Shown: positions 1 through 51,130 of the stretch, piece after piece
Numbering within the stretch: the stretch's first letter is position 1
Layout of the letters: the number at the start of each line of letters is the position of its first letter
Source: Escherichia virus TH35
Direction: 5' to 3' (one strand)
DNA: 64,000 nucleotides
Sequence record: MT446408.1
The notes under the pieces: model-generated
Told to the model about the DNA's origin: nothing
What the model saw: the letters and a program-made list of their open reading frames with translations, nothing else
Databases searched by the model: none
Position numbers and translations under genes: made by a program

Positions 1-1
1 G

Positions 2-1094: not shown

Positions 1095-1129
1095 TATCTC
1101 ATCGAAACGAAGTCCAAAAGGATAAATAA

Positions 1130-1813: not shown

Positions 1814-1816
1814 ATC

Positions 1817-1987
1817 ATGACTATCAAAGTTGTTGTAGAAGTGATTGGCGACTTGGCAGAAGTGAAGATTGATCAAGAAGGCGTTGGATTTGAAGTAATA
1901 AGAATCGAAAACGCAAAGATTAACCACGAGCGCGTCGGTTCCATTGAGACTTATTCCATAGAAGGCAACACAGTAATTAATCAATAA
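1817..1987 (+). CDS. Small hypothetical protein (56 aa), below ORF-track size cut-off
   Basis: ATG 1817 to TAA 1985-1987 translated by eye; fills the gap between SDR gene and next gene on the coding strand. Confidence 0.3.
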   Translation: MTIKVVVEVIGDLAEVKIDQEGVGFEVIRIENAKINHERVGSIETYSIEGNTVINQ

Positions 1988-2007
1988 TATTTAATTAAGG
2001 AAACAAA

Positions 2008-2559
2008 ATGCCACATTTTAAAATTGAACAAATCGCCCTGTCAATTCCATGTGCTCAGCGCGCACAGAATTTCCTGGCTAAAATCGGCCTGACAGAATGG
2101 TTCCATGATCACGTTGTTGCTACTGGTCGCGTATTTGAAGCTGATGTCTTTAAGGGTCAGCGCGGCGATTGCACCAACGAAGCTGACTTGCGCTTCAACT
2201 ATCAGGCTGGCAACGGCACCGATGGCGGCGCTGGTAAGCCTCTTGAGCTTGAAATTCTTGACTATACAAAAGGTTGCAACTGGATTCACGAAAACATCGA
2301 ATACATCGATGCGCACGACAATCAGGTTAGCCATCTTGGTATGCACGTGACTGCCGCTGAACTTGCTGAATGGCGTAAGTTCTTTAAAGAAGAAGGTATT
2401 CAGGTTGCACAGGAAGTTGTAACTGACTCTCATACCAACCCGAACATTGCTGGTCAACGTCGTTACAACTATGTGATCTTTGATACGCGTGAAATCATCG
2501 GCGTTGATTTGAAGTTTATCGTGCGCTTGAATCAAGACGGTACTCCGTACACTGTATAA
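2008..2559 (+). CDS. Hypothetical protein (183 aa)
   Basis: ORF track; RBS AAGGAA upstream; no confident family assignment. Confidence 0.55.
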   Translation: MPHFKIEQIALSIPCAQRAQNFLAKIGLTEWFHDHVVATGRVFEADVFKGQRGDCTNEADLRFNYQAGNGTDGGAGKPLELEILDYTKGCNWIHENIEYIDAHDNQVSHLGMHVTAAELAEWRKFFKEEGIQVAQEVVTDSHTNPNIAGQRRYNYVIFDTREIIGVDLKFIVRLNQDGTPYTV

Positions 2560-2575
2560 CGAATCGTGAATCTGT

Positions 2576-2601
2576 GGCCGTCCTAATGGGCGGCCTTTTT
2601 G
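2576..2601 (+). terminator. Rho-independent terminator (GC hairpin GGCCG...CGGCC followed by T-run)
   Basis: Hairpin plus TTTTT read directly downstream of 2559 stop. Confidence 0.55.
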
Positions 2602-2613
2602 TAGGAGGCTAAT

Positions 2614-3156
2614 GTGTTATTTCTCCCTTATGACTTCGAAACAACCGGATTGACCGTGCACCCGAAAGCGCCGCTTGGGATGCAGCCGCGCCCTATTGAA
2701 TTTGCAGGTCTGTTGACAGACGGCAAAGAGATTCTTGAAACGTTTGAATTCATAATTAATCCTGAAATCGTGATTGAAGAAATTATCACAAAGATTACCG
2801 GATTAACAAATGAAGACCTTGAGTGCAATCCACCATTCATCAATTTTGTCCCGCAGCTAAAAGAAATCTTCAAGAAGACGGATGCCACTATCGCGCACAA
2901 CCATGCGTTCGATAAAAACATTCTTGATTATGCACTACAGCGCGAAGGACTTACGCTTGATGGTGTTAATTTTCCAGAAATAAACATTTGTACAGTTGAG
3001 CAAACCTTGCCTATTTTTGGCCGAAGAGTTAAGCTTCAAGAGCTGTATGAATTATATTTCGGAAAATATGAACAGAAACACCGTGCATTAGACGACGTAA
3101 TATTACTGCACAAAGTCTGCCAACAAATTGGCGTATATGACATCTGGAGTAAATAA
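2614..3156 (+). CDS. DnaQ-like 3'-5' exonuclease (DEDD family, proofreading-type)
   Basis: ORF track 180 aa (GTG start, RBS AGGAGG); Exo I YDFETTGL, Exo II AHNHAFD, Exo III HRALDD motifs. Confidence 0.8.
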   Translation: MLFLPYDFETTGLTVHPKAPLGMQPRPIEFAGLLTDGKEILETFEFIINPEIVIEEIITKITGLTNEDLECNPPFINFVPQLKEIFKKTDATIAHNHAFDKNILDYALQREGLTLDGVNFPEINICTVEQTLPIFGRRVKLQELYELYFGKYEQKHRALDDVILLHKVCQQIGVYDIWSK

Positions 3157-6053
3157 TGTTTCCACAATTGAGAGTTCGCAGCGGTTACACGTTCAAAGAA
3201 GTTTATGGACGGCATCCTGAAATTATAGCACGGCTCAAAGAGTTGGGCTGCGAAGTCGCGGCATTAGTTGATAACAACACATGGGGTCACGTTCGCTGGG
3301 AAAAGGAATGCCAGAAAAATGATATTAAGCCTATGTTTGGGATGGAGATTCCAATCATCGACCCTGATGCGGACCCGAAAAAGGGATTCAAACCGAAGGC
3401 TTGGATATTGGCCCTTGACTTGAAATCTTTTTACAATGCTACAACACTTGCAACGCAGCGCGGTGGACTTACCCGTTCAGAGTTCGGTGCGCTCGATGGC
3501 GTCGTTAAATTCTGTGGCGGTGCCGTGGAGTTGCTGCGGCCAGAGGACTACGACTATATAGACGTCAACCCATCATCGTTCCTTTTGGCAAAGCGCCAGG
3601 CATTGGCTCATCGTAGCAGTGGAAGGCCGCTGGTTTTAACCGGATACAATCACATGCCTTCACCTGAGCACGTTGACTTTGCTTATGCGTGGGAAGTGCG
3701 CGACACGGTTAAGCCGCATTGCATCGTTGACGTTGAAGACTTGCGCAAACAGCTTAAAGGCATCTTGACTGAAGATGAACTTGATCAGGCAACGGCCAAT
3801 GCTGTGGACATCGCAAACGGCATAGTCGGGCTTGACTTGAAATTGCGTAAGGCACCGATTATTCACCTTGCTGGTGACATGGTAAAGCTTGCTCGCGAGG
3901 GTATGGAGTACCGTCTAAAAGCAGGTCACATCAAAGAATGGACTCAGGAATACGAGGACCGCTTCAACGAAGAAATTCACCAGATTCAGCTGAAAGATTT
4001 CGACTCATACTTTCTGGTGGTAGCGGACCTTGTACGATTCGCAAAAACAAAAATGCTCGTCGGTCCTGCGCGCGGCTCATCGGCTGGTTCACTTGTTTGC
4101 TATTGCCTCGGCATCACGGAAGTGGACCCAATCCCGTATAAGCTGCTGTTTGCCCGATTCATCGACGTAAGTCGCGCCGACCTTCCTGACATCGACATCG
4201 ACTTTGAAGATACCAAACGCTATATGGTGTTTGATTATCTCAAAGAGAAATACGGCGAAATGAATGTTGCAAAGCTTGGCAACATCAACACGCTTAAGGC
4301 CAACTCAGTAATGGCGCAGGTTGGTAAGAAGTTCAACATTGGATACCACGAAACGGCCAACATTAAAAACGCACTGCTTGAATACTCATCCGGTGACGCC
4401 CGTTATGGTCACGGCCTGGAGGATACCTTTGCAACAACGACCACGGGCCAAGAGTTCGTGGCGAAATATCCTGACGCCGCGCGTTGCATGGGTGACCTTG
4501 AGATTCACCCTTCCCACACAGGGGTGCACGCAGCGGGAATCATCGTGTGTAATGACCCAATCTCTGATTACTGTACTGTAACTGCGGAAGGGATTGCGCA
4601 AATCGATAAGCCTGACAGCGAGTACCTTAACCTTTTGAAGCTTGATGCACTGGGCCTTCGTACTCTCGGCATTATTTCTGATACAGGCGTTATTGATGCT
4701 GAAACGCTCTACGGAATCAAGCTTGATGATCAAAGCGTACTTGACATTCTTAACGAAAACAAGATGTCAGGCATCTTCCAGTTTGAAGGTGACGCTGTAC
4801 GCTCAGTAACAAACTTTGTGCACGTCGACAACTTTAACAAAATCGACAACCTGACAGCTTTGGGTCGACCTGGCCCGTTGTCATCCGGTATGGCCCAGAA
4901 ATACATTGAACGCGCGGCAGGGCGTGCGCCGATTGAGTACGACGTGCCGCAGCTTGAGCCGTACTTGAAAGAGACTTACGGCGTGTTTCTTTACCAAGAG
5001 CAAATCATGGCCGTGGTTAAAGAGATTGGTTCATTTGACTGGGCGAAAACGTCAGCTGTGCGTAAGGCGATGTCAGGCCGTAAGGGTGAAGAATACTTTA
5101 ACAAGCTTGGCGAGGACTTTGTTGCAGGCGCAATCAATAACGGCGTACCGGAAGCGGATGCAAGAAAGCTTTGGCAAGCGATGGCCACGTTCGGGTCATG
5201 GGGCTTTAACAAGTCACACTCCGTGTCATACGCGGTCGTGACCTACTGGACCTTGTGGCTTAAGCGACACTACCCGTTGGAATTTGCCGCTGCCTGCTTA
5301 CGCGCTGCTAAGGACGAAGACCAGACGATTGCGATATTACGTGAACTAGCGAAGGAAGGCGTGGATTATGTGCCAATCGACCCTGATCACTCTTCGATGA
5401 ACTGGACCATCGCGAACGGAAAGCTAATCGGCGGCATCATGAACGCGAAAGGATACGGAATGGTGAAGGCGATGAAGTATATCGAAGCGCGTGAAGCCGG
5501 AACCTTAACGCAAAAGCAAAAGGACGCATTGGCCAATGCTGAAGTCAAATACGGCGACCTTACAGAGATGCACACAAAGTTCGGCTGGGCGTATAATGAC
5601 CCGTATCTGATTGGTGTGACGTCCGGCGCTTCAATACGCCAGATGAAGGAAGTCGGTGATGACGAGCGTGCAATAGTAATCGGCAAGTTGACAAAGAAAG
5701 TGCTTGCAGACGAGAACGAAGCGACACGCATCCGTAAACGACTTGAGCGCGGCATCTATACAAAGCACGGCAAGCTTAAAAAAGGTCTTCAAGCTGATGG
5801 CCGCTACGCAGAGTTTGACCAGTACGGAAACAAGCTTGAGACTCAGTTCATCGACCTTATGTGCAAAGACGACTCGACCGACTCGCCAATGCGCTTCAGG
5901 ATTCGTCCAGAAAAGTTCCAGAAGTACGGGAAATACATTGCTGAAAACGTCGGGAACGGCGCATTCTTCCTGATGAAAGGTCGCAAGCTTGAAGGCATTG
6001 ACATGTTCATAGTCGACGTTATCAAACAGGTGTATCCAGATGGCAACAAATAA
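3156..6053 (+). CDS. DNA polymerase III alpha-subunit-like replicative polymerase (DnaE family, PHP domain N-terminal)
   Basis: ORF track 965 aa; conserved GSSAGSLVCYCLGIT and DLPDIDIDFE polymerase motifs. Confidence 0.9.
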   Translation: MFPQLRVRSGYTFKEVYGRHPEIIARLKELGCEVAALVDNNTWGHVRWEKECQKNDIKPMFGMEIPIIDPDADPKKGFKPKAWILALDLKSFYNATTLATQRGGLTRSEFGALDGVVKFCGGAVELLRPEDYDYIDVNPSSFLLAKRQALAHRSSGRPLVLTGYNHMPSPEHVDFAYAWEVRDTVKPHCIVDVEDLRKQLKGILTEDELDQATANAVDIANGIVGLDLKLRKAPIIHLAGDMVKLAREGMEYRLKAGHIKEWTQEYEDRFNEEIHQIQLKDFDSYFLVVADLVRFAKTKMLVGPARGSSAGSLVCYCLGITEVDPIPYKLLFARFIDVSRADLPDIDIDFEDTKRYMVFDYLKEKYGEMNVAKLGNINTLKANSVMAQVGKKFNIGYHETANIKNALLEYSSGDARYGHGLEDTFATTTTGQEFVAKYPDAARCMGDLEIHPSHTGVHAAGIIVCNDPISDYCTVTAEGIAQIDKPDSEYLNLLKLDALGLRTLGIISDTGVIDAETLYGIKLDDQSVLDILNENKMSGIFQFEGDAVRSVTNFVHVDNFNKIDNLTALGRPGPLSSGMAQKYIERAAGRAPIEYDVPQLEPYLKETYGVFLYQEQIMAVVKEIGSFDWAKTSAVRKAMSGRKGEEYFNKLGEDFVAGAINNGVPEADARKLWQAMATFGSWGFNKSHSVSYAVVTYWTLWLKRHYPLEFAAACLRAAKDEDQTIAILRELAKEGVDYVPIDPDHSSMNWTIANGKLIGGIMNAKGYGMVKAMKYIEAREAGTLTQKQKDALANAEVKYGDLTEMHTKFGWAYNDPYLIGVTSGASIRQMKEVGDDERAIVIGKLTKKVLADENEATRIRKRLERGIYTKHGKLKKGLQADGRYAEFDQYGNKLETQFIDLMCKDDSTDSPMRFRIRPEKFQKYGKYIAENVGNGAFFLMKGRKLEGIDMFIVDVIKQVYPDGNK

Positions 6054-6462
6054 CCGTGAGCAGAAATACATATTCGTGCCTTTAAAGAAGCATTCAGAGT
6101 CAGTATTGAAGCTTCAACGAATCGAGTCGATGACTGGTGATGGCGTGCCGGACGTAATCGGCACCAACCGGAAAGGGCGCGGCTTTTGGCTTGAAATGAA
6201 GTTCTTTGAATCGTGGCCTGCAAGGGCCACCACTGCACCTTTCAGAAATGCATTTGAGAAAGGTCAATGCAGCTTTCTTTCTTCGTGGAATGATTGGAAA
6301 TACCCATCATTTGTTCTGCTTAAGGTTGATTCTGAGAAGATGTTTTATTTAGTCCACCCTTCTATTGAATTAAAGCGTTATAATACTGCAGACGTTCAAC
6401 GTGAGATAATCGTGAAGGGAACTATTCATCACATCATCAAGTATTTAGAGGAATTGTCGTGA
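6040..6462 (+). CDS. VRR-NUC domain nuclease (PD-(D/E)xK fold)
   Basis: ORF track 140 aa; GVPDVIG ... GFWLEMK motif arrangement. Confidence 0.7.
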   Translation: MATNNREQKYIFVPLKKHSESVLKLQRIESMTGDGVPDVIGTNRKGRGFWLEMKFFESWPARATTAPFRNAFEKGQCSFLSSWNDWKYPSFVLLKVDSEKMFYLVHPSIELKRYNTADVQREIIVKGTIHHIIKYLEELS

Positions 6463-7982
6463 AAACACAAGGAATGCGCCACCAATTATTGGCGCTTGAT
6501 AAAGCAGGCCGCAGAAAATACTTTGCTTATTTCATGGAGCAGGGTCTTGGCAAAACCTGGACCGCTTTGGCAGAGTTTGAAAAGCATTTTACCGCTGGCG
6601 CATTTGATGCCATGGTTGTAATCGCTCCTAACGGTGTACACTCAAACTGGATTCGTCGTGAAGCACCAGAGCACCTTTCCATTAAATGGATTGGTCATTA
6701 CTGGCGCGGCAATGACAAAATGAAAACTAAAAAGGGCAAGGCGCTTTGGGAGAAGATGTTTGCTGATCACTATCCTGAAGGCGAAGTGCCTGCACGAATC
6801 TTCTCATTCAACATTGACACGGTGAACACGCCAGTCGGTTATCAACACATTGAGTCCGTACTGAAGAAGTACCGCTGTTTGATGATCATTGATGAATCGA
6901 CGCGTATCAAAAATAACACAGCCAAACGCTCCATCAAGGTTGTGGAATTGGGACGGCTGGCAAAGGCCCGTCGAATCCTTTCCGGTACGCCGCTGCCGCG
7001 CTCGCCTGCTGATATTTACATGCAGTATCACTTCCTTGAAGCTGGCTTGCTTGGCACAAAATCGTTCCGTGCATTCAACTCTGAATTTACAGTCCTGCTT
7101 GAAGCGCACGACCCAGAGATGCAGGCCATTCTCAAGAAAATCGGCGGCAACGGTTATGGCATTCCGCAAGTGCCGCGCAAAGACCATTTTGGCCGACCGA
7201 TGTACAAAAACCTTGACAAGCTTATCCGGCTGATGGAACCGCACTATTTTCGTGCGACAAAAGCGGAATACTTGCCGGACCTTCCAGAGAAGGTGTACAA
7301 GTTTATTGACTTCGAGTTGTCGCCTAAACAACGCGATGTTTACGATGAACTCAAGAATGAGTACAACTATCTGATGGAGTACAAAGGCGAAGAAGAAAAC
7401 GTTAAGTTTGAGATGATCGCATCTCGCACTAAGATGAAGCAGGTGACATCAGGCTTTGTTAAGGTGTATGATGAGATGGTCTACATGGAAGACAACCCAC
7501 GATTCACGGCCTTTAAGGACTATGTGGAAGGGGTGCTGGAAGACGACCCAGAGCGCAAATTCATTGTTTGGGCCATCTTTAAGGAAGAGATGAACCAGAT
7601 TAAGGACTGGCTTGAGTCTGAAGGCGTGGTCACTGGTGTATATAACGGTGAAACATCAAAAGAGCAGCGCGAGTTCTTGATTGATGACTTCCAGAAGAAC
7701 ACAGTTGAGAACGGTGGAACGCAAGTCTTAGTTTGTCACGCTGCAGCGGCAGGCATCGGAATCACGCTTACCGCCGCCGACTTGGCAATCTATTATTCTT
7801 GCAACTATGACAACGAGTTGCGCAAGCAATCCGAAGACCGAAATCACCGCATCGGCACCAAATCAAGCGTGTTGTATGTTGATTTTATTGGGGTTGATAC
7901 CATCGACGAAGAAATTCAGCGTTCATTGAGTATGAAGTCTATGCTTGCTGATCACATCCTCGACGGCAAAAAGATGAATTAA
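6459..7982 (+). CDS. SNF2-family helicase
   Basis: ORF track 507 aa; motif I GLGKT, motif II IIDESTRIKN, motif VI QSEDRNHRIG. Confidence 0.85.
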   Translation: MKTQGMRHQLLALDKAGRRKYFAYFMEQGLGKTWTALAEFEKHFTAGAFDAMVVIAPNGVHSNWIRREAPEHLSIKWIGHYWRGNDKMKTKKGKALWEKMFADHYPEGEVPARIFSFNIDTVNTPVGYQHIESVLKKYRCLMIIDESTRIKNNTAKRSIKVVELGRLAKARRILSGTPLPRSPADIYMQYHFLEAGLLGTKSFRAFNSEFTVLLEAHDPEMQAILKKIGGNGYGIPQVPRKDHFGRPMYKNLDKLIRLMEPHYFRATKAEYLPDLPEKVYKFIDFELSPKQRDVYDELKNEYNYLMEYKGEEENVKFEMIASRTKMKQVTSGFVKVYDEMVYMEDNPRFTAFKDYVEGVLEDDPERKFIVWAIFKEEMNQIKDWLESEGVVTGVYNGETSKEQREFLIDDFQKNTVENGGTQVLVCHAAAAGIGITLTAADLAIYYSCNYDNELRKQSEDRNHRIGTKSSVLYVDFIGVDTIDEEIQRSLSMKSMLADHILDGKKMN

Positions 7983-7995
7983 TATCAAAAATAAT

Positions 7996-8024
7996 TTGAC
8001 TTGTCACGGAAGATGAGTCATAAT
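7996..8024 (+). promoter_or_regulatory. Sigma70-like promoter (TTGACT-N17-CATAAT) with downstream GATGAG...CATCGAAACGAA box
   Basis: Read from sequence upstream of 8057 ATG. Confidence 0.5.
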
Positions 8025-8056
8025 TACTTCATCGAAACGAAACAGAGGAATACAAA

Positions 8057-8320
8057 ATGGTACGCATCCTTGAACGTTACAAAAATGAAGCTACTGGCGC
8101 AATCGCTTTCAAACGTCTTTTGGTCAAAGAAATTGACGGAATGTTTCGCATTGTTAAAGAGTTTGATTATGGCAACGGTGCTGGGGTGAATACCGTTATC
8201 ATGCCTGGCATCAAGGCGTATAAAACCTTAAAAGGCGCTGAGAAGGCTTTGTCGGCTTGGAAACCTGAACGTTATCAAATGACCCGTGTTGAAGGGCTAA
8301 TGCAAGAAGGTAAAATATGA
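8057..8320 (+). CDS. Hypothetical protein (87 aa)
   Basis: ORF track; RBS GAGGAA upstream; preferred over overlapping 8001-8189 ORF which covers the promoter. Confidence 0.6.
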   Translation: MVRILERYKNEATGAIAFKRLLVKEIDGMFRIVKEFDYGNGAGVNTVIMPGIKAYKTLKGAEKALSAWKPERYQMTRVEGLMQEGKI

Positions 8321-8874
8321 GCAATATTAATTGGGAAGATGATTTGCCGCAGGTCGCTCCTGAGAGCATTCAAGAGCGCCTTGCGCGCTTAGTATCTGAA
8401 TTGGCAGAACGCCAAGAAGCTTTGACAGAGCTTGAAGATGAAGCTGATATGCAAAAGCAGCGCATCAGTGAAATCAAGACTGTTTTACTTCCTGGCGTCA
8501 TGGATGAGCTTGGCGTGTCTGAAATCAAGCTTGAAGACAAGACCAAAATCAAGGTCGAGTCGAAAGTGAATGCTTCAATCAAGAAAGAAAACGAATTAAA
8601 AGTTTTCGATTGGCTTGTCAACAACGGTTACGGCGGCCTGATCAAGTCCAGCGTCACGGCTGAGTTCGGTCGCGAAGAAATCGAACAGGCGCAAGAGATT
8701 GTTGCCGCGCTGCGTGAAGATGGTGTTGAAGCAACGTTGAAACAAGGCGTTCATTCTGCTACACTGAAGTCATTTGTAAAAGAACAACTGGAAGCGGGCA
8801 ATCCAGTTAGTGAAGATATTAGCGTTTTTGAATACAAAGAAGCTAAAATAACCTTGCCTAAAAGCAAAAAGTAA
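8317..8874 (+). CDS. Hypothetical protein (185 aa) with N-terminal coiled-coil
   Basis: ORF track; translational coupling with upstream gene; function not assigned. Confidence 0.6.
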   Translation: MSNINWEDDLPQVAPESIQERLARLVSELAERQEALTELEDEADMQKQRISEIKTVLLPGVMDELGVSEIKLEDKTKIKVESKVNASIKKENELKVFDWLVNNGYGGLIKSSVTAEFGREEIEQAQEIVAALREDGVEATLKQGVHSATLKSFVKEQLEAGNPVSEDISVFEYKEAKITLPKSKK

Positions 8875-8933
8875 TTTAACCTTTATCTTGAAATCAGGTT
8901 GCCACGAAACTTGATACTATAGGAAAATATCAA

Positions 8934-9794
8934 ATGTCTAAGAAAGAAACTACCGAAGTTGCAGTGAAAAACACCCAGATGTCCGCTATGGCTGATTTTG
9001 TCGACATGACCGATTTTGGCGCTGGTTTTGAAGGTGCCGATGCCGATGCGTATGCCATTCCTTTTATCGTCGTACTGCAGAAGATGTCTCCTATGGTCGA
9101 CGAAGATGATCCAAAACACGTTCCTGGCGCAAAAGCTGGCATGCTTTACAACACCGTTACTGGTGAGTTGTATGACGGCAAGAAAGGCGTGCAGATCATC
9201 CCTTGCGCATTCAAACGCACCTTCATCCTTTGGGGCGGTCGCGAGTCCGACGATAAAGGCTTTAAAGGTGAATTCACCAAAGAGCACGTTGATGCAGAAG
9301 TAGCGGCAGGCCGCGCTGTTGAGATCAACGGTAAAGTGTTTGTGCCGGACGAAAACGGCAAAGTGCACGAGAAGAAATCGCCTTACTACGCAGATACACG
9401 TAACCACTTCGTAATTCTGTTGAACGAAGAAACTGGTGAATTTGGTAGCGCAATGTTGTCTTTGACTTCTTCGATGATCAAGCCGTCTCGCATGCTGATG
9501 ACCGCGCTGCAGCAGAAGAAAGTTCAGACTCCGCAAGGTCTGAAAACGCCGCCGACCTTTATGAACATCGTTCGCATGGGTACTGCATCCCAGTCCAAAG
9601 ACGGGAACACCTGGTCTGTTCTGAAGTTTGAGTTGGAAGGTCTGGTGCAGGACAAAGGTCTGTATGAAGTCGCCAAAGCATTCCACAACGATGTAGTTGG
9701 CGGCAACGTTAACATTGACCGCAGCAAGCAGGAAGAAGCAAGCGGTGCCGCTGGCCCTGTTAATGAAACTCCGACCGACGCAGAAGAGTTTTAA
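8934..9794 (+). CDS. Hypothetical protein (286 aa)
   Basis: ORF track; position between helicase and lysis genes; no confident family. Confidence 0.65.
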   Translation: MSKKETTEVAVKNTQMSAMADFVDMTDFGAGFEGADADAYAIPFIVVLQKMSPMVDEDDPKHVPGAKAGMLYNTVTGELYDGKKGVQIIPCAFKRTFILWGGRESDDKGFKGEFTKEHVDAEVAAGRAVEINGKVFVPDENGKVHEKKSPYYADTRNHFVILLNEETGEFGSAMLSLTSSMIKPSRMLMTALQQKKVQTPQGLKTPPTFMNIVRMGTASQSKDGNTWSVLKFELEGLVQDKGLYEVAKAFHNDVVGGNVNIDRSKQEEASGAAGPVNETPTDAEEF

Positions 9795-9812
9795 TCGACA
9801 ATCAAATCAACA

Positions 9813-9838
9813 AGGCTGCCGATTGGCGGCCTTTTATT
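9813..9838 (+). terminator. Rho-independent terminator
   Basis: GGCTGCC-GATT-GGCGGCC hairpin followed by TTTTATTT. Confidence 0.55.
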
Positions 9839-9851
9839 TATCTGGTGCATC

Positions 9852-10370
9852 ATGATAGAAAGAATTGTACCACTCCTGAAGATTATGGCCCTTGTTGGCG
9901 CGTTTGCCGCTGGATCATACGTTGAAGACCTGCAGCAAACCAACGCATCACTGGCCAAGGATAACCAATATCTGACATCGCTTAATGAGCGTAAGGACAA
10001 GATAAATGCACTCGAAGAGCAAATTGCATCTTTACAGGTTGAATCGGCATCGGCATATGAGAAAGGTCGCCAGGAAGCGCAACTGGTTGCTGATGACACT
10101 ATTGCTCGTTACAAGTCTGGGAATATCAAGTTGCGCGAGCAACTCAGCTGCTCCCGTGAGTTACTCAGGAGTGTGCCCGACTCTGCGACCACTGGACGCC
10201 TCTCTATCCCAGAAGGAAACTGTGGACTATCAGAAGAAGATGTCAGATTTCTTGTTCAGTTCGCCGCAGAAACAAACCGATTAAAAGATAAAGTTAATAG
10301 CTTGATTGATACTTATAATCAGGCTAAAATAAAAATCGATCAATTCAATGCATCAAAGGAAAATAAATGA
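9852..10370 (+). CDS. Rz-like i-spanin (inner-membrane spanin subunit)
   Basis: ORF track 172 aa; N-terminal transmembrane segment then long coiled-coil; contains embedded lipoprotein ORF in +1 frame. Confidence 0.6.
   Translation: MIERIVPLLKIMALVGAFAAGSYVEDLQQTNASLAKDNQYLTSLNERKDKINALEEQIASLQVESASAYEKGRQEAQLVADDTIARYKSGNIKLREQLSCSRELLRSVPDSATTGRLSIPEGNCGLSEEDVRFLVQFAAETNRLKDKVNSLIDTYNQAKIKIDQFNASKENK
10057..10284 (+). CDS. Rz1-like o-spanin (outer-membrane lipoprotein), embedded in the i-spanin gene
   Basis: ORF track 10006-10284; start moved to internal ATG 10057 giving MRKVARKRNWLLMTLLLVTSLGISSC signal peptide with lipobox Cys. Confidence 0.5.
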   Translation: MRKVARKRNWLLMTLLLVTSLGISSCASNSAAPVSYSGVCPTLRPLDASLSQKETVDYQKKMSDFLFSSPQKQTD

Positions 10371-47109: not shown

Positions 47110-47745
47110 GCCGCGCAGGAGTGTACTGCAAATTTACTGTGGGCACAAAATAGTACGGTACTGTCTAGGACTTTTTCTTTGAAAAGTTAGTGGACCAAAT
47201 GTGTCGTATTTTGATTAGTGTACTGCAAATTTCATCAAGTACCAAAACGCACCAAAAGACCCATGCCCTAAAAACCACACGAACGCAATAATCAATCGCC
47301 GTTACAGTTTCCAGCGTTACAATTCGAAAGCGAATGATTCGATACACAATAATATGAAGCATAATGATTCGAAAGCGAATGATTGCGTGTAGTATAATAT
47401 CGGTGGGGATTATTCTAGATGCATGTAATTTCGCATGCGTACTATTTTCGGACGAAGGGTCGGCATATTCCTCGTTTTAGTTCGGAACGAAGGGAAAGTT
47501 TTGCGCCTTTATAAAACAACGACTTACGCAACCCGCCCTAACGGTCCGATATAGGTGTCTATATAAAACAAGGACTTACGCGATGTTCTCCATTTAACGT
47601 AATACCCGTTATGCGAACTAAGGAGCATCTCGAAGAAGATTATGAGGCGACGAAGGGAAGGATAAAGGAGTTTTCGCGGAGAAGCGCATCGAGATAGGGA
47701 CGAAGAAAAGCCGCGACTAAGCGCGGCCTATTAGTAACGGAAGGA
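47110..47745. repeat. Noncoding repeat-rich region (~640 bp) with several direct repeats
   Basis: TACTGCAAATTT x2, TTCGAAAGCGAATGATT x2, TATAAAACAA(C/G)GACTTACGC x2, ACGAAGGG x3-4 read directly; only one weak 65-aa ORF. Confidence 0.5.
47689..47712 (-). terminator. Rho-independent terminator for acidic paralog A
   Basis: On - strand GCCGCG-CTTAGT-CGCGGC hairpin followed by TTTTCTT. Confidence 0.45.
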
Positions 47746-47747
47746 TA

Positions 47748-48038
47748 TTATAAGGAGACAATTTTAAAATAAGTTACTTCGCCGCCGAGTTGCGGTACAG
47801 CGATATATTCGCCGCCGATTTCGGTAATCGTATAAACGAAGCCGTTAATCGTTACGCGATAGGATACGATGTCCTCGTCGCGATACTTGTAAAGGTCGAG
47901 GAAGTTGATCGGCTCATAAATAGACTCGATAATCGCGTCGACGTTAGAGAGATAAACGCTCTCTAAGGTTTCGCCAAATACGTTAGAGTTTTCGGAAGTT
48001 TCGACGCGAGCGGAACGGATAGCGGCTAAAGTAATCAT
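47748..48038 (-). CDS. Acidic small protein, paralog A (96 aa, net charge about -10)
   Basis: ORF track; RBS AGGAG; own promoter; similar to 48146-48448 and 48674-48958. Confidence 0.65.
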   Translation of the reverse strand: MITLAAIRSARVETSENSNVFGETLESVYLSNVDAIIESIYEPINFLDLYKYRDEDIVSYRVTINGFVYTITEIGGEYIAVPQLGGEVTYFKIVSL

Positions 48039-48105
48039 AATAATCTCCTAGTTGGTCGGGCGGGTAGCGACCTATTCGCTACCTCATCCCCTCTCGATAT
48101 AAAAC

Positions 48106-48134
48106 ATTATAGTATTAGTGTACGAAGAAGTAAA
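48106..48134 (-). promoter_or_regulatory. Sigma70-like promoter TTTACT-N17-TATAAT with upstream CGAAAAAGTGC element
   Basis: Read on - strand; near-identical to promoter at 48577-48604. Confidence 0.6.
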
Positions 48135-48145
48135 GCACTTTTTCG

Positions 48146-48448
48146 TTATTTTGCGATAAAATGTTTATAAGCTTTATCGCCTTCTACGTCGATATACTCG
48201 ACGATAATTAACGCTTCGTCGCGAGGCGTAACCGTCTCGATAAGGGTAACGGCTTCGTCGTCGGTCTTCGCGAAGCGGATGGCGCTACGTTCGGCGTATT
48301 TCATATCGTCGAAGGAAAGGCCGACGAAGGCGAACGCGCGGACCTTAATAGCGGTCCCGTCTAGTTCCGCGTTAACGGCTTTAAGAAGAGAAGCGACGGT
48401 TAAGCGGTCTTCGTCGTAAGTAAGGATAGAAGAGATTAAAGTGGTCAT
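48146..48448 (-). CDS. Acidic small protein, paralog B (100 aa)
   Basis: ORF track 48146-48505; start moved to ATG 48448 (RBS GGGAG) because the promoter -10 lies at 48505-48510. Confidence 0.6.
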   Translation of the reverse strand: MTTLISSILTYDEDRLTVASLLKAVNAELDGTAIKVRAFAFVGLSFDDMKYAERSAIRFAKTDDEAVTLIETVTPRDEALIIVEYIDVEGDKAYKHFIAK

Positions 48449-48504
48449 AATAAAACTCCCGATGCTAGTAGAAGGAAGGGCCATCGCCCGTCTCGATATA
48501 AACA

Positions 48505-48532
48505 AGTATACGCGAGTGTACGAAGAAGTAAA
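48505..48532 (-). promoter_or_regulatory. Sigma70-like promoter TTTACT-N16-TATACT
   Basis: Read on - strand upstream of paralog B. Confidence 0.5.
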
Positions 48533-48576
48533 GAAAAAAGATAAAATAATTTATCTCATTTTTATCGAAAAAGTGC

Positions 48577-48604
48577 TTTACTTTTTTCTACACTATATTA
48601 TAAT
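48577..48604 (+). promoter_or_regulatory. Sigma70-like promoter TTTACT-N16/17-TATAAT with upstream CGAAAAAGTGC element
   Basis: Read on + strand upstream of paralog C; about 60-nt leader to ATG. Confidence 0.6.
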
Positions 48605-48673
48605 GTACTCATATCGGGACGGGATGAGTTAACGAATAGGTCGTTAACGCCCGTCGAGAACTAGGAGTTTAAA

Positions 48674-48958
48674 ATGGCTATTCTTAACGTTTCTTCCATC
48701 CGTAACGCTATCGTCGAGAACTACGGCGTAAAACAAATTTTATCCGAAGTCTACGCCGCGAACGTAGACCAAACTATCGAGGCAGGTGGGGTAACGGTCG
48801 CCGAGGCTTTTAAACTTTACGCGGCGCTACCGGAATCGGACCGCGAAGCCTTCGAAGTAAACGTTAACGGATACTTCTTCGAAGCGGTCGAAATCGGTAA
48901 CACCTTACTCGTTATGGGCGAAGAAGAATTTGAGACCTTCTCCCTCGTCGAAGCGTAA
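48674..48958 (+). CDS. Acidic small protein, paralog C (94 aa, net charge about -12)
   Basis: ORF track; RBS AGGAG; own promoter and terminator. Confidence 0.65.
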   Translation: MAILNVSSIRNAIVENYGVKQILSEVYAANVDQTIEAGGVTVAEAFKLYAALPESDREAFEVNVNGYFFEAVEIGNTLLVMGEEEFETFSLVEA

Positions 48959-48972
48959 GAGAGGATTTTTAG

Positions 48973-48998
48973 AGCGTCGTGCGCGACGCTTTAATAAA
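48973..48998 (+). terminator. Terminator hairpin after paralog C
   Basis: AGCGTCGTGCGCGACGCT palindrome followed by TTTAATAAAATTCTTT. Confidence 0.5.
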
Positions 48999-49038
48999 AT
49001 TCTTTCGCGCCTAGCGCCCTAACAAATAGGAGTTTATT

Positions 49039-49665
49039 ATGGTTAGCTTAAATCGTTTCTCGACTAGCGGCGACGTTATCGCAACTAAGACCGCCGACCT
49101 CGTTGCATTTTATAATGCAAATTCCGGTTCGAAGCCGATTAAGAAATTTTCGGACCGCCGGACCGCCGAGGCTCGCGTAATAGCGTTAATCGAGTCCTTA
49201 AACGCGCTCGATGAGCCGTCCAACGAATCGCCCATCCCAGACGCGAAGTCGCGCGAGGAAGTGCCCAGCGATGTAAAAACGCATAAGGCGCGTGCGGTCG
49301 TTAAAAAGTCCGAGCCGACCCAGGAAGAACTCGACGCGATGACCGACGAAGAGTATGAAGCCTTCGTTAAGAGCGGTTTAAACGATAGTGCAAATTGCGT
49401 AGTGCAAAATGGAACTCCTTCCCATCGCCGTTCAAATAGCGAAGGTATTGCGAAAAGTTGGGATAACAAGGAAGTGGCGCAAAAGCGTCTCACGCGTAAC
49501 GGCGTTATGGTCGAGGGTGTAGGCGAGTTCAAATCGGTCCGCGTAGCGTTTGCTGCGCTGGGCTTACCGGATAGCAAGCACATTCGCTTCCGCATGAAGC
49601 TTAAAGAAGCTGGACGATTGAACTTTGAGTTCGGCAACAAGTCCTACACCTTCCAGATCATCTAA
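49039..49665 (+). CDS. Hypothetical protein (208 aa), mosaic composition
   Basis: ORF track; RBS AGGAG; 5' half CpG-rich like the acidic cassette; contains two ATAGTGCAAAT-type motifs at 49385-49410. Confidence 0.6.
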   Translation: MVSLNRFSTSGDVIATKTADLVAFYNANSGSKPIKKFSDRRTAEARVIALIESLNALDEPSNESPIPDAKSREEVPSDVKTHKARAVVKKSEPTQEELDAMTDEEYEAFVKSGLNDSANCVVQNGTPSHRRSNSEGIAKSWDNKEVAQKRLTRNGVMVEGVGEFKSVRVAFAALGLPDSKHIRFRMKLKEAGRLNFEFGNKSYTFQII

Positions 49666-49671
49666 TCGAAT

Positions 49672-49694
49672 GGCGGCCCTTCGGGGTCGCTTTT
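49672..49694 (+). terminator. Rho-independent terminator
   Basis: GCGGCCC-TTCG-GGGTCGC hairpin (one G-U pair) followed by TTTT; followed immediately by ATAGTGCAAAT. Confidence 0.5.
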
Positions 49695-49715
49695 CATAGT
49701 GCAAATTGGTGGCTT

Positions 49716-49979
49716 ATGAATACGCTTATTCTTATCGCTACGTTGTCCATCGGAAGTGGTCGCACCTTATCCCTTTATGATCATAGTGCAAATTGCGCTT
49801 ACCCAACGCGCGTTGCGGTGATAGTTAATAGTGCAAATCGAATGCTATTCGAGACTTGTTGGCGGGTCGATAACGAGAAAGGTCGGGTAGTCTTAGGTTA
49901 TAGTGCAAATCTGCTGGTGGAGTCGTTCGATTGGACGGTTGAAGGCCGTAAATTGTTACGGAAAGTGACTAAAAGATGA
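49716..49979 (+). CDS. Doubtful ORF (87 aa) carrying three ATAGTGCAAAT motif copies
   Basis: ORF track; GGTGG as possible RBS; coding status uncertain. Confidence 0.3.
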   Translation: MNTLILIATLSIGSGRTLSLYDHSANCAYPTRVAVIVNSANRMLFETCWRVDNEKGRVVLGYSANLLVESFDWTVEGRKLLRKVTKR

Positions 49980-50040
49980 CTTATAATAATACACTTTCTA
50001 ACGCGTTTATGGTTGTAACCTTCCCCGTCGTATTACCGAT

Positions 50041-50080
50041 GGCCCTAGAAGTGGAGAAAATGTGTTCTAGGGCCGTTTTA
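50041..50080 (+). terminator. Rho-independent terminator
   Basis: Perfect 10-bp stem GGCCCTAGAA/TTCTAGGGCC followed by GTTTTA, then ATAGTGCAAAT. Confidence 0.55.
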
Positions 50081-50093
50081 TAGTGCAAATTGG

Positions 50094-50582
50094 CTAGTGG
50101 CGGGAGAATTGCTCACCTTCTTTGGCCGCCTCTCCAAAATCCTTGTAGAAATCGTCCATAGAACGGCCCATTTTACTATTGCCGTTTTCATCAATCATCG
50201 TGATGCCGTAGATGATATTCAGTTCACGAATAGCATTAAGCTTGGCTGATGCCGCGACTTCTGGATCACGCACAAGCTTGACCAAATTGTGAATTGCACC
50301 TTTTACGCTCCACAAATCCTTTAGCGGCATTTCTTCCATACGCTTTTTGAAGCGCATTTTGTAGTACGGATTGCGTTGTGCGCAAAGGATTCGCTGGCCA
50401 GTGTAGTTATCCGTTGCAACTTCCATTCCAAATACTAGTGCAAAAGCTGCGCGCATGTCATGGCCCTGAATAACAAGGTCAATGAACTCATCGAATAAGG
50501 CCTGATTGTGCTCTGCAAATCGCGGGTCTTCAAAGTCTTCAGGCATCGCTACATAGTCTTGACTCATAGTGCAAAATCCCAT
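50094..50582 (-). CDS. Hypothetical protein (162 aa); motif copies overlap both gene ends
   Basis: ORF track; start codon overlaps an ATAGTGCAAAAT copy; no clear RBS; function not assigned. Confidence 0.55.
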   Translation of the reverse strand: MGFCTMSQDYVAMPEDFEDPRFAEHNQALFDEFIDLVIQGHDMRAAFALVFGMEVATDNYTGQRILCAQRNPYYKMRFKKRMEEMPLKDLWSVKGAIHNLVKLVRDPEVAASAKLNAIRELNIIYGITMIDENGNSKMGRSMDDFYKDFGEAAKEGEQFSRH

Positions 50583-50714
50583 AGTGCAAATTAATAGTGT
50601 GAATTATACAATGGATGAACATTATATTCAAGTGCAGATTGATGTTCATTATGGCTATAAACGTACACAAATCATATTGCGGAATGAATAGCGGACCGTG
50701 GTGCGTGGTGTACT

Positions 50715-51130
50715 GTTTGATACGTATAAAAGAAATCCATCCCTTTCGCCGCTTGTTATGCAAATCAATGACTTAGCCGCTGCTGGCTGGTTTAAGCGTA
50801 TCATGACGTATCATCCGTATTGCCGCAAGTCTTTGTTTTTACTTATATCTTACGGATAATACGTATAAATATAAGTTTAGTATAAGTATGAGGATATGAA
50901 AAAAATTAATTTAAATGTTTTTAAAATGGAGTTTATTTATTTTTGGAGTTTTATATATAACGATGCCCAGTTTTATCCGTATCATCCGTAAGATTAATGT
51001 ACAAGCCAGGCGCGGCAAGGGCTGTACACTGATACGGATAAAAAAACATGACGTATCATGACGTAAGGGTGTACCACTTTGGAAAAGAGGAATCCAGGAA
51101 CGGTGCGGCCTGCAGCCATGATACGCTTAA
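50715..51130. repeat. Second iteron-like array (GATACGGAT and GTATCATGACGTA repeats) flanking a ~90-bp AT-rich core
   Basis: Read directly; shares 21-mer ATCCGTATCATCCGTAAGATT with 34774-34794. Confidence 0.6.

What the first reader, a model, noticed from the sequence alone, without database searches (positions are those of the whole stretch)
47689..49000. Cassette of three paralogous, strongly acidic small proteins, each with its own promoter and a covarying 5' leader hairpin
Genes at 47748-48038 (-), 48146-48448 (-) and 48674-48958 (+) encode mutually similar 94-100 aa proteins with net charge about -8 to -12. Promoters of A and C are near-identical (CGAAAAAGTGC-TTTACT-N17-TATAAT). Their ~60-nt leaders share ATATCG(A/G)GA(G/C)GGG followed by a hairpin whose stem differs between copies (GTAGCGA/TCGCTAC versus GTTAACG/CGTTAAC) while staying complementary and keeping the AATAGGT loop, which argues for selection on RNA structure. 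The cassette is CpG-rich unlike the rest of the phage, suggesting horizontal acquisition. Small acidic early proteins are the profile of DNA-mimic anti-restriction proteins (Ocr and ArdA are the established examples), so this may be an anti-defence module under cis-RNA control.
Basis: partly seen in the sequence, partly recalled or inferred. Interest (0 to 1): 0.8.

Follow-up and report, generated by a model that had tools for sequence, protein, structure and literature searches.

The report
Phage early cassette lacking CA/TG dinucleotides
Inside the terminal repeat of an E. coli Wifcevirus phage sits a swap-prone cassette of strongly promoted small acidic orphan genes, embedded in about 2 kb of DNA almost purged of the dinucleotide CA/TG; related phages share this, and it may help explain how they escape restriction enzymes.

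Summary
The window is a Wifcevirus and the cassette lies inside its ~3.7 kb direct terminal repeat. A and C (and a WFC-type variant, C') form one divergent acidic family with a confidently predicted fold that matches no solved structure. B is unrelated by sequence and only mildly acidic. All three genes have the same sigma-70-type promoter core and an ATATCG start box. Only A and C have the covarying hairpin.

"CpG-rich" understates the composition. CA/TG is nearly excluded (o/e 0.2-0.3 against 1.16 elsewhere), while CG and TA rise. This shapes codon and amino-acid usage. A distant metagenomic relative is even more extreme (o/e 0.02-0.07), and a Pantoea Kylevirus shares the island. Pbunavirus, T5 and T7 do not. 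The composition is therefore maintained, not a relic of transfer.

No similarity to Ocr or ArdA was found. One circumstantial link to restriction did emerge. Published data show Wifceviruses resist every tested RM system except EcoP1_I. EcoP1_I sites lie in the repeat in both orientations, whereas EcoCFT_II sites (identified here as CACAG) are absent from it. That matches the rule known for T5. The most likely reading is an immediate-early anti-defence or host-takeover module. The cause of the CA/TG exclusion is unexplained.

The parts
47255..50927 (.). Extent of the direct terminal repeat, transferred by homology from the Mansfield annotation
   Evidence: Mansfield's repeat_region 1-3673 (PhageTerm prediction) maps to these window coordinates. 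A terminal repeat of about 3.7 kb is reported for WFC and WFH (PMC6563267), and 3,673 bp for Mansfield (PMC6753283). I did not determine the boundaries independently.
47400..49400 (.). CA/TG-excluded, CG- and TA-enriched compositional island
   Evidence: Symmetrised o/e values are CA/TG 0.40 (core 0.20-0.30) against 1.18 elsewhere, CG 2.03 against 1.09, and TA 1.17 against 0.66. No other 400-nt window in the 64 kb falls below 0.75. Only 80 CA/TG dinucleotides remain in 2 kb. It is the only such segment in the complete Bas99 genome.
47748..48038 (-). Gene A: 96 aa, net charge -8, member of the A/C/C' family
   Evidence: dN/dS 0.38.
48146..48448 (-). Gene B: 100 aa, net charge -6, a separate orphan family present in all 28 relatives
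   Evidence: The structure model is low confidence (pLDDT 52.6). A B-like homologue in L025 is 29% identical with net charge -19.
48674..48958 (+). Gene C: 94 aa, net charge -12, occupying a variable slot
   Evidence: C is present in 11 of 28 records. It is replaced by a 104-aa C' in WFC, WFH and Bas98. It is absent in ECML-117 and RCIP0319. The structure model has pLDDT 89.9.
49039..49665 (+). Gene D: 208 aa, a conserved core gene whose 5' half lies in the island
   Evidence: Matches phrog_4730. dN/dS is 0.06. Homologues occur in 355 phage records, including Pbunavirus, Kylevirus and Serratia phages. CA/TG density rises along the gene.
48106..48134 (-). Promoter PA (TTTACT-N17-TATAAT)
48505..48532 (-). 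Promoter PB (TTTACT-N16-TATACT), divergent from PC
48577..48604 (+). Promoter PC (TTTACT-N16-TATAAT)
   Evidence: The promoter core is conserved in L025 and in Pantoea phage PA1.
48039..48100 (-). Leader of A: ATATCGAGAGGGG box plus a two-tier stem-loop (inner hairpin 48063-48083)
   Evidence: z -2.3; CM score 94 bits.
48611..48673 (+). Leader of C: ATATCGGGACGGG box plus a two-tier stem-loop (inner hairpin 48628-48648)
   Evidence: z -2.9; CM score 78 bits.
48449..48499 (-). Leader of B: same 5' box, with no conserved hairpin
   Evidence: z about 0; matched only through its flanks.
47708..47729 (-). Intrinsic terminator after gene A
   Evidence: Annotated as a terminator in Mansfield, WFC and WFH.
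48973..48990 (+). Terminator-like hairpin between C and D (AGCGTCG-TGCG-CGACGCT followed by a weak T-run)
   Evidence: Read directly from the sequence. It is deleted together with C in ECML-117 and RCIP0319.
47313..47707 (+). Conserved noncoding, repeat-rich segment within the island, next to the inner boundary of the terminal repeat
   Evidence: Tandem 43-nt promoter-like repeats and short direct repeats. Highly conserved across 11 genomes. No significant RNA fold on either strand. No Rfam match.

Best explanation
This is the immediate-early accessory-gene module of the phage's direct terminal repeat.

Host RNA polymerase most likely reads three strong sigma-70-type promoters that share an unusually conserved core and a conserved transcript start (AUAUCG...). 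Two of the leaders fold into a 5'-proximal two-tier stem-loop. That stem-loop most likely stabilises the mRNA or is bound by a factor.

The products are genus-restricted small acidic proteins: the A/C/C' family and B. They sit in exchangeable slots next to the conserved core gene D. Their most likely job is to neutralise host defences or take over the host in the first minutes of infection, before the rest of the genome is exposed. This parallels the pre-early genes in the T5 terminal repeat.

The DNA carrying the module is kept almost free of CA/TG. The most likely reason is that this first-exposed DNA must lack targets for one or more host nucleases, or a phage nuclease, until its products act.

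Shown here: gene reality, family relationships, promoter and leader conservation, hairpin complementarity, the compositional island and its conservation across lineages, and the distribution of restriction sites.

Inferred: early timing, transcription start sites, order of DNA entry, protein function, and the selective agent behind CA/TG exclusion.
For: - Location: the module lies in the terminal repeat.
- Promoters: the three promoters occur only here and share 19 nt of core. That core is one of only three DNA segments still alignable with the distant relative L025, and it recurs four times in Pantoea phage PA1.
- Proteins: orphan and acidic, with conserved or stronger acidity in relatives (L025 A-like -11, L025 B-like -19, PA1 homologue -16).
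- Turnover: accessory-type behaviour. C can be C, C' or absent, and extra ORFs occur in ECO71P1 and ECML-117. dN/dS is higher than for core gene D.
- Site distribution: the repeat holds 6-7 AGACC sites in both orientations, 0 EcoRI, 0 EcoRV, 0 EcoAI-type and 1 EcoKI site.
- EcoCFT_II: identified here as CACAG by exact agreement with two published counts. It has 91-92 sites genome-wide and none in the repeat (expected about 5, P about 0.005), with no strand bias. The pattern holds in 11 genomes.
- Precedent: in T5-like phages, RM systems act only when their sites lie in the terminal repeat (PMC10644984).
- Maintenance of CA/TG exclusion.
Against: - No protein function was demonstrated, and no homology or fold match to any known anti-defence protein was found.
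- The absence of EcoRI, EcoRV and EcoAI-type sites from the repeat is not significant on its own (expected 0.2-1.0).
- The absence of CACAG is largely a by-product of CA/TG exclusion.
- Tequintaviruses resist EcoPI despite having sites in their FST, so the analogy is imperfect.
- Removing CA/TG removes only about half of the known recognition sequences I tallied by eye (not computed). It also enriches the palindromes TCGA, CGCG and CTAG, which argues against generic restriction-site avoidance.
- Within-genus substitutions create CA/TG at nearly the neutral rate (37% against 41%, p=0.10).
- Which genome end enters first, and whether entry is stepwise, is unknown.
- The repeat encodes several other candidate proteins besides A, B and C.
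Confidence: 0.5

Rival explanations
1. The proteins are early host-takeover factors unrelated to immunity, for example inhibitors of host transcription, replication, division or nucleoid proteins. The correlation with restriction phenotypes would then be due to other genes in the terminal repeat, or be coincidental.
For: The location, promoters and turnover fit takeover genes equally well. Wifceviruses are reported to have extremely fast infection cycles (PMC11990801). No anti-defence homology was found. Many small acidic early phage proteins target host proteins rather than nucleases (my own knowledge).
Against: The presence/absence polymorphism of C and the fast evolution of A and B are more typical of arms-race accessory genes than of essential takeover functions. 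The restriction-site pattern calls for some protective function that is expressed early.
Confidence: 0.25
2. A, B or C are DNA mimics in the strict sense, inhibiting type I RM or BREX by occupying the DNA-binding groove as Ocr and ArdA do.
For: They are small and acidic, and probably expressed first. C is the most acidic of 45 small ORFs. Relatives reach -0.15 to -0.17 net charge per residue. The phages resist type I systems.
Against: There is no sequence or structural similarity to Ocr, ArdA or any solved protein. The C model is a compact alpha/beta domain. Net charge per residue is -0.06 to -0.13 here against -0.24 for Ocr. B has 12 basic residues. [quoted passage not shown]
Confidence: 0.12
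3. The island is a horizontally acquired 'moron' cassette, and its composition is simply that of an unknown donor with no function of its own.
For: The boundaries are sharp, the cassette content is variable, and every inserted ORF shares the composition. Within-genus transitions create CA/TG at close to the random rate.
Against: The same composition is found at the homologous position in three lineages whose shared proteins are only 29-52% identical. It is stronger in the most divergent one. Noncoding parts are affected too. It fades gradually inside the vertically inherited core gene D. CA/TG-creating variants are enriched among singletons (OR 1.8, p=0.015). No donor or outside homologue exists among 5.8 billion proteins searched with a word prefilter, or among 1.84 billion cluster representatives searched exhaustively.
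Confidence: 0.07
4. CA/TG exclusion serves gene expression or DNA transactions rather than nuclease evasion. It could remove every NTG start codon and TGA from both strands. It could remove -35 (TTGACA) and extended -10 (TG) motifs and most host transcription-factor half-sites. Or it could remove primase (CTG) or gyrase (TG) sites in the terminal repeat.
For: In L025 the only TG dinucleotides across about 1 kb of the sense strand are the three true ATG starts and one promoter-proximal site. Even the island's own -35 is TTTACT rather than TTGACA. CAG/CTG is the most depleted context (0.07) and TTGA/TCAA drops about 10-fold. The depletion is centred on the divergent promoters and decays over roughly 1 kb. 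The primase and gyrase preferences are from my own memory and were not checked here.
Against: Selection against spurious starts or promoters is normally far too weak to reach near-absolute exclusion, or to distort amino-acid usage. Other strongly expressed early regions (T7, T5) show nothing similar. The depletion is strand-symmetric inside genes, which fits a double-stranded DNA property but does not point to any one of these processes.
Confidence: 0.2
5. The inverted repeat in the A and C leaders is a DNA operator for a dimeric repressor, or a promoter-proximal DNA element, rather than an RNA hairpin.
For: It lies 25-45 bp downstream of the -10 element. The promoter spacer and start box are conserved beyond what sigma-70 needs, which suggests an additional DNA-binding factor.
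Against: The half-sites differ between A and C (GTAGCGA against GTTAACG) while complementarity is kept. One repressor would not tolerate that. Natural variants include G.U and U.G pairs that are compatible only in sense-strand RNA. PA1 has a hairpin with the same AAUAG loop on a completely different stem. The G-rich box pairs with variable C-rich tracts.
Confidence: 0.1

Closest known systems
Pre-early (first-step-transfer) region in the long terminal repeat of T5-like phages (T5, BF23)
   Same: Both are terminal-repeat locations carrying many small genes under strong host-type promoters. In both, the phage resists RM systems unless the recognition sites lie in the repeat (PMC10644984; here). 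In both, the responsible anti-restriction protein is unknown.
   Different: The repeat here is 3.7 kb rather than about 10 kb. No protein homology to T5 genes was seen in the family scans, though A1, A2 and dmp were not compared directly. Two-step DNA transfer is not known for Wifcevirus. T5's repeat has a normal CA/TG content of 0.94. Tequintaviruses resist EcoPI, whereas Wifceviruses are sensitive to it.
T7 gene 0.3 (Ocr), the first gene transcribed from the leading genome end
   Same: Both are small acidic proteins that are, or are likely to be, made first from host-type promoters at a genome end. Ocr's role is to protect DNA that has not yet entered.
   Different: There is no sequence or fold similarity. 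Net charge per residue is a quarter to a half that of Ocr (-0.06 to -0.13 against -0.24). The T7 leading region shows no CA/TG exclusion.
ArdA and other anti-restriction genes in the leading regions of conjugative plasmids
   Same: Both follow the logic of 'first DNA in, anti-defence genes first out'. Both are acidic small proteins.
   Different: There is no Pfam or PDB match. The size and fold differ. The context is a phage, not a plasmid. This comparison rests on my own knowledge of ArdA and was not tested beyond the family and fold searches.
Restriction-site (palindrome) avoidance in phage genomes
   Same: Both involve depletion of short sequence words, plausibly driven by nucleases.
   Different: Known avoidance concerns specific 4-6-bp sites across the whole genome. 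Here a single dinucleotide is excluded locally, over about 2 kb, on both strands, in coding and noncoding DNA, strongly enough to remove Cys, Trp and His and most Gln and Met. Several palindromes (TCGA, CGCG, CTAG) are enriched. My literature search found no precedent.
5'-terminal stabilising stem-loops of bacterial and phage mRNAs (ompA type)
   Same: Both are stable stem-loops close to the predicted 5' end, upstream of an accessible Shine-Dalgarno sequence.
   Different: The transcription start is only predicted. The stem begins about 8-11 nt from the predicted start. The conserved AAUAG(G/A) loop suggests sequence-specific recognition rather than mere end protection. Gene B lacks the stem-loop.

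Membership tests
Ocr (T7 gp0.3) DNA-mimic family | Sequence or profile match to the Ocr family | tested here: not met
   No Pfam family at E<=1 for A, B or C. No PDB sequence relative for either family profile.
Ocr (T7 gp0.3) DNA-mimic family | The Ocr fold (from my own knowledge: an elongated, mostly helical dimer that imitates bent B-form DNA) | tested here: not met
Ocr (T7 gp0.3) DNA-mimic family | Extreme negative charge density | tested here: not met
   Ocr is -28 over 117 aa (-0.24 per residue). A is -0.08, B -0.06 and C -0.13. Relatives reach -0.17.
ArdA anti-restriction family | Profile match and the ArdA fold | tested here: not met
T5-type pre-early (FST) module | Located in a long direct terminal repeat | tested here: met
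   By homology to the Mansfield annotation and published repeats. I did not re-determine the boundaries.
T5-type pre-early (FST) module | Strong host-type promoters driving small genes | tested here: met
   Matches to the consensus with a conserved core. Promoter activity was not measured.
T5-type pre-early (FST) module | RM systems restrict only when their sites lie in the repeat | tested here: inconclusive
   The pattern is consistent. EcoP1_I (phage sensitive) has 6-7 sites in both orientations. EcoCFT_II/CACAG (phage resistant) has 0 of 92 sites in the repeat, P about 0.005. EcoRI, EcoRV and EcoAI-type sites are all 0. The phenotypes come from PMC11990801. This is a correlation only.
T5-type pre-early (FST) module | Two-step DNA transfer with an injection stop signal, and A1/A2 homologues | not testable with these tools
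   DNA-entry kinetics need experiments. The repeat proteins gave no informative family hits. No direct comparison with A1 or A2 was made.
Known RNA families (Rfam) | Covariance-model match | tested here: not met
   No Rfam match at E<=1 across 46.5-51.5 kb.
Lambda-type nut site (boxA plus boxB hairpin) | BoxA consensus followed by a boxB hairpin, with an N-like protein | tested here: not met
   The architecture (a linear box plus a hairpin with a 5-nt loop) is similar. The box is ATATCGRGASGGG, not the boxA sequence as I recall it, and it pairs with a downstream tract. No N-like protein was identified.

The most novel reading that the evidence does not exclude
A locally enforced 'dinucleotide exclusion zone'. 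In enterobacterial relatives of Pbunavirus (Wifcevirus, Kylevirus and an unnamed lineage), the roughly 2 kb of terminal-repeat DNA that carries the first-expressed genes is kept almost free of CA/TG on both strands. In one lineage the only TGs left within the A-like and B-like genes are their start codons. The cause would be a host or phage activity with very short sequence specificity that acts on this DNA before its products protect the genome, or while the phage destroys host DNA. That would be a sequence-level immunity strategy distinct from site-specific restriction avoidance, DNA modification and protein inhibitors. It would also identify the orphan acidic proteins as components of a new anti-restriction system that explains the unexplained RM resistance of Wifceviruses.
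Probability: 0.3. Interest if true: 0.9.

Novelty: new variant of a known kind. Interest (0 to 1): 0.74.

Why it matters
Three reasons.

1. The BASEL study left an explicit puzzle. Wifceviruses resist every tested RM system except EcoP1_I, have no known protection mechanism, and carry equal numbers of EcoP1_I and EcoCFT_II sites. The site map found here (EcoP1_I sites inside the terminal repeat, EcoCFT_II sites absent from it) turns that puzzle into a direct experiment. It also narrows the candidate protective genes to a handful in a 3.7 kb repeat.

2. I did not find a precedent for a conserved, near-absolute local exclusion of one dinucleotide strong enough to reshape protein composition. Whatever enforces it is a strong and unrecognised selective agent on enterobacterial phages.

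3. The module offers compact, very strong, portable promoter and leader units, plus a new small-protein fold family. Wifceviruses are of practical interest because of their reported very fast replication and their kinship to therapeutic Pbunaviruses.

Tried and rejected
- Pfam and PHROG scans of A, B and C found nothing.
- PDB sequence searches with both family profiles found nothing meaningful.
- B could not be modelled (pLDDT 52.6), so B's fold is unknown.
- A profile-profile comparison of the A/C/C' family against B showed no relation.
- Rfam found nothing.
- The covariance model of the leader found only A and C in 64 kb.
- A promoter-core scan of IMG/VR gave only Wifcevirus copies plus chance matches lacking a -10 element and leader.
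- The extra leader-box hit at 42720 is a terminator stem.
- A structured ncRNA in 47400-47735 is rejected (z +0.23 and -1.28).
- T5's terminal repeat and T7's leading region, tested as possible precedents for CA/TG exclusion, are both negative.
- Strand bias as the reason for EcoCFT_II resistance is rejected (51 plus, 41 minus).
- Sense-strand (RNA-level) asymmetry of the depletion is absent.
- Gene-wide positive selection on A or B was not found (dN/dS 0.29-0.38).
- A literature search for TpG/CpA depletion in phages found no relevant precedent.
Full report
**What the window is.**
The region matches 28 Wifcevirus genomes at 90-96% identity. These are E. coli and Shigella myophages such as WFC, WFH, ECML-117, Mansfield and Bas98-101. 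In Mansfield, the homologous stretch is annotated as a 3,673-bp direct terminal repeat predicted by PhageTerm. Transferred to the window, this spans about 47255-50927. WFC and WFH are reported to have terminal repeats of about 3.7 kb (PMC6563267; PMC6753283). The curated Bas99 map places the module just after a run of about 40 small, probably early ORFs. No DNA-modification gene is annotated in the genome.

**Checking the proteins.**
The three ORFs exist as described.
- A (96 aa, net -8) and C (94 aa, net -12) are related (27% identity, E=1e-5; E=4e-7 without composition correction).
- WFC-type phages carry a 104-aa acidic protein, C', in the C slot. It is weakly related to C (E=9e-4).
- B (100 aa, net -6) matches neither A nor C by BLASTP or by profile-profile comparison (probability 0.2%).
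- Against the phage's other small ORFs, C is the most acidic of 45, A ranks 4th and B ranks 13th.
- All genes are under purifying selection. dN/dS is 0.38 for A, 0.29 for B, 0.13 for C and 0.06 for D. So they are real genes, and A and B evolve fast.

**Homology and structure.**
- Neither family has a Pfam or PHROG match or a sequence relative in the PDB.
- In a search of 5.8 billion proteins (word prefilter), all homologues came from contigs of Wifcevirus size.
- An exhaustive profile search of 1.84 billion cluster representatives added one small homologue, P0045.
- The C model is confident (pLDDT 89.9, pTM 0.78) and mixed alpha/beta.
- In the viral structure library, the C model matched the WFH paralogue of A (TM 0.67). 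It also matched uncharacterised small proteins of Pantoea phage Kyle (TM 0.71), Erwinia phage TropicalSun and Shigella phage MK-13.
- B's model was unusable (pLDDT 52.6).
- The proteins are therefore not members of the Ocr or ArdA families. Their net charge per residue is a quarter to a half that of Ocr (-0.06 to -0.13 against -0.24).

**Promoters and leaders.**
All three genes are preceded by CTTTACTT[CT]TT[CT][GC]TACACT, then TATAAT or TATACT, then ATATCG(A/G)GA(G/C)GGG. This combination occurs nowhere else in the window. The apparent fourth leader-box copy at 42720 is a terminator stem.

Across 11 distinct variants, 97.7% of cells are paired. Two pairs change on both sides (GC to UA, and GC to AU with a G.U intermediate). 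Folding shows more structure. The G-rich 5' box pairs with a C-rich tract 3' of the hairpin. That tract differs between strains (CCCGUC against CCUCUCCC) yet still pairs. The A and C leaders fold better than shuffled sequence (z -2.3 and -2.9). The B leaders do not (z -0.05 to -1.1).

A covariance model finds only the A and C leaders in 64 kb, and Rfam has no match. All the covariation stems from one A-versus-C divergence, so the evidence is real but thin. Single-strain variants are split evenly: two are wobble-compatible and two disrupt pairing. Independent support comes from Pantoea phage PA1. One of its leaders forms GGC-GA-CGG-AAUAGA-CCG-AA-GCC, which has the same loop motif on an unrelated stem. 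Different half-sites with kept complementarity, together with G.U pairs, favour an RNA structure over a DNA operator.

**A cassette hotspot.**
- C is present in 11 of 28 genomes.
- C' replaces it in WFC, WFH and Bas98.
- ECML-117 and RCIP0319 have neither, and there the C-type promoter and leader drive D directly.
- The deletion junction lies in a roughly 22-nt ribosome-binding-site repeat that flanks the slot (family D11).
- ECO71P1 has an extra 50-aa ORF between B and PA. ECML-117 has an extra 69-aa ORF after A.
- Gene D is a core gene found in 355 phage records, mostly Pseudomonas Pbunavirus.

**The composition.**
The CpG excess is real, but the underlying signal is different.

| Dinucleotide (symmetrised o/e) | Island 47.4-49.4 kb | Rest of window |
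|---|---|---|
| CA/TG | 0.40 (core 0.20-0.30) | 1.18 |
| CG | 2.03 | 1.09 |
| TA | 1.17 | 0.66 |

- No other 400-nt window in the 64 kb falls below 0.75 for CA/TG (mean 1.16, sd 0.19). No other segment of the complete Bas99 genome does either.
- Only 80 CA/TG dinucleotides remain in 2 kb. Many of them are in start codons and promoter elements.
- Synonymous codons containing CA or TG are avoided. CTG+TTG make up 6% of Leu codons against 46% in reference ORFs. ACA is 0% against 27%, and TCA is 3% against 25%.
- Cys, Trp, His, Gln and Met are depleted 2- to 5-fold.
- All three codon positions, both gene orientations and the noncoding parts are affected. This points to a property of the double-stranded DNA.
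- Every context is depleted. CAG/CTG is the most depleted (0.07 of the genome rate) and CAT/ATG the least (0.53).

**Relic or maintained?**
Within the genus, transitions that create CA/TG are about as frequent as random expectation (37% against 41%, p=0.10). They are, however, over-represented among singletons (OR 1.8, p=0.015).

The decisive evidence is comparative.
- P0045 lies on a 23-kb metagenomic contig, L025, with the same gene order. Its proteins are only 35% (A-like), 29% (B-like), 49% (D-like) and 52% (terS-like) identical to the window's. Only 439 nt align at the DNA level, and that includes the promoter.
- The L025 island is more extreme. CA/TG o/e is 0.02-0.07 over about 1 kb. Nine CA/TG remain in 1,130 nt, and three of them are the ATG start codons. 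The A-like and B-like genes contain none apart from their start codons.
- Pantoea phage PA1 (Kylevirus; D 45% identical) also has the island (o/e 0.21-0.5). It has four promoters of the same type and a 93-aa, net -16 member of the A/C/C' family.
- A Pbunavirus has no island. T5's terminal repeat (0.94) and T7's leading region have none either.
- In both Wifcevirus and L025, the depletion fades gradually along core gene D.

Simple horizontal acquisition is therefore not a sufficient explanation. The composition is maintained in enterobacterial members of this phage group.

**The link to restriction.**
[quoted passage not shown] The exception is EcoP1_I. This holds even though EcoCFT_II has similar site numbers (PMC11990801). 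In T5-like phages, RM systems work only if their sites lie in the first-entering terminal repeat (PMC10644984).

My site counts reproduce the published table for Bas99 (EcoKI 5, EcoRI 19x2, EcoRV 4x2, EcoP1_I 89). EcoCFT_I is EcoAI-like. I identified EcoCFT_II's 5-nt site as CACAG. It is the only 5-mer that matches both published counts, 92 in Bas99 and 51 in Bas01.

| RM system (site) | Reported phenotype | Sites in the terminal repeat |
|---|---|---|
| EcoRI (GAATTC) | resistant | 0 |
| EcoRV (GATATC) | resistant | 0 |
| EcoCFT_I (EcoAI-type) | resistant | 0 |
| EcoKI | resistant | 1 |
| EcoCFT_II (CACAG) | resistant | 0 of 91-92 genome-wide (expected about 5, P about 0.005) |
| EcoP1_I (AGACC) | very sensitive | 6-7, in both orientations |

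CACAG shows no strand bias (51 plus, 41 minus). The site pattern holds in 11 genomes, with one lone CACAG in Bas98. The one effective system is thus the one with an active site configuration in the repeat.

This is a correlation, with caveats. The expected counts for the 6-bp and type I sites are below about 1. The CACAG absence is largely a by-product of CA/TG exclusion. Tequintaviruses behave differently towards EcoPI.

**Interpretation.**
The best-supported reading is an immediate-early module in the terminal repeat, transcribed by host RNA polymerase. Its exchangeable small acidic proteins act in anti-defence or host takeover. It sits on DNA that is kept free of some target until those products act.

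The strict DNA-mimic mechanism has no positive support, but a new fold could still act that way. Alternative reasons for CA/TG exclusion cannot be separated with sequence data. They include removing all NTG starts, -35/TG motifs and host-factor sites, and removing primase or gyrase sites (the primase and gyrase preferences are from my memory only). Generic restriction-site avoidance is weakened because TCGA, CGCG and CTAG are enriched.

**Verdict.**
The finding is real and more unusual than described. It is a new variant of a known kind: terminal-repeat early modules of the T5 type. It carries an apparently undescribed, conserved dinucleotide exclusion, and it gives a directly testable connection to a published, unexplained restriction-resistance phenotype.

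Noticed in passing
window 47313-47707: Two tandem 43-45-nt repeats (ATTCGAAAGCGAATGATT-N8-(A/T)ATAAT) look like promoters. They read into a conserved, repeat-rich noncoding stretch with ACGAAGGG four times and CT(T/A)TATAAAACAA(C/G)GACTTACGC twice. The stretch lies next to the inner boundary of the terminal repeat. It has no significant RNA fold and no Rfam match. It could be a packaging, end-formation or injection-related element.
   Followed up: partly
window 49112-49911, and 47120 / 47217: The motif ATAGTGCAAATTGCG occurs 5-7 times within and after gene D. AGTGTACTGCAAATTT occurs twice just outside the repeat boundary. These could be iterons, operators or a phage-specific promoter motif.
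   Followed up: no
Bas99 (L015+L016) and Bas01 (L024), whole genomes: The recognition site of the type III system EcoCFT_II, given only in a figure of the BASEL papers, can be inferred as CACAG. It is the only 5-mer whose counts (92 in Bas99, 51 in Bas01) match both published numbers.
   Followed up: yes
L021 (ECO71P1) ~1155-1307; L006 (ECML-117) insertion after window position 47757: Two extra small ORFs sit in the cassette. One is 50 aa, between B and PA, in ECO71P1 (RCIP0363, AV128 and SP13 also show ~170-230 extra bases here, not inspected). The other is 69 aa, after A, in ECML-117. Each has its own ribosome-binding site, and both share the CA/TG-poor, CG-rich composition. A RefSeq copy of ECML-117 labels one feature in this region 'transcriptional regulator'.
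   Followed up: partly
window 48659-48680 and 49024-49045: A roughly 22-nt repeat of the ribosome-binding region (AA(C/A)TAGGAGTTTA(A/T)(A/T)ATGG(C/T)TA) flanks the C slot. The ECML-117 and RCIP0319 deletion junction falls inside it. This suggests cassette loss and gain by recombination between translation-initiation regions.
   Followed up: partly
window 50094-50582 (-): A 162-aa gene inside the terminal repeat is annotated in Mansfield as a terminase small subunit (by HHpred). It is conserved in L025 at 52% identity. Here it matched only phrog_4783 (unknown function) and no Pfam family.
   Followed up: no
L017 (T5) 1-10219: T5's terminal repeat (first-step-transfer DNA) has a CpG o/e of 1.31, against 0.76 in the following 40 kb, with normal CA/TG. 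This mild compositional difference was not pursued.
   Followed up: no
L025 1304-1915: The distant relative encodes a 203-aa protein with weak Macro-domain hits among its small early genes. Macro domains bind or remove ADP-ribose, so this is a possible counter-defence gene.
   Followed up: no
window 47419-47440: A terminator-like hairpin (ATGCATG...GCATGCGT followed by a T-run) lies about 20-45 nt downstream of the promoter-like site at 47369-47398. It is present only in some strains. Others carry TGTCGG in place of TGCATG, which breaks the stem and also removes CA/TG dinucleotides.
   Followed up: no
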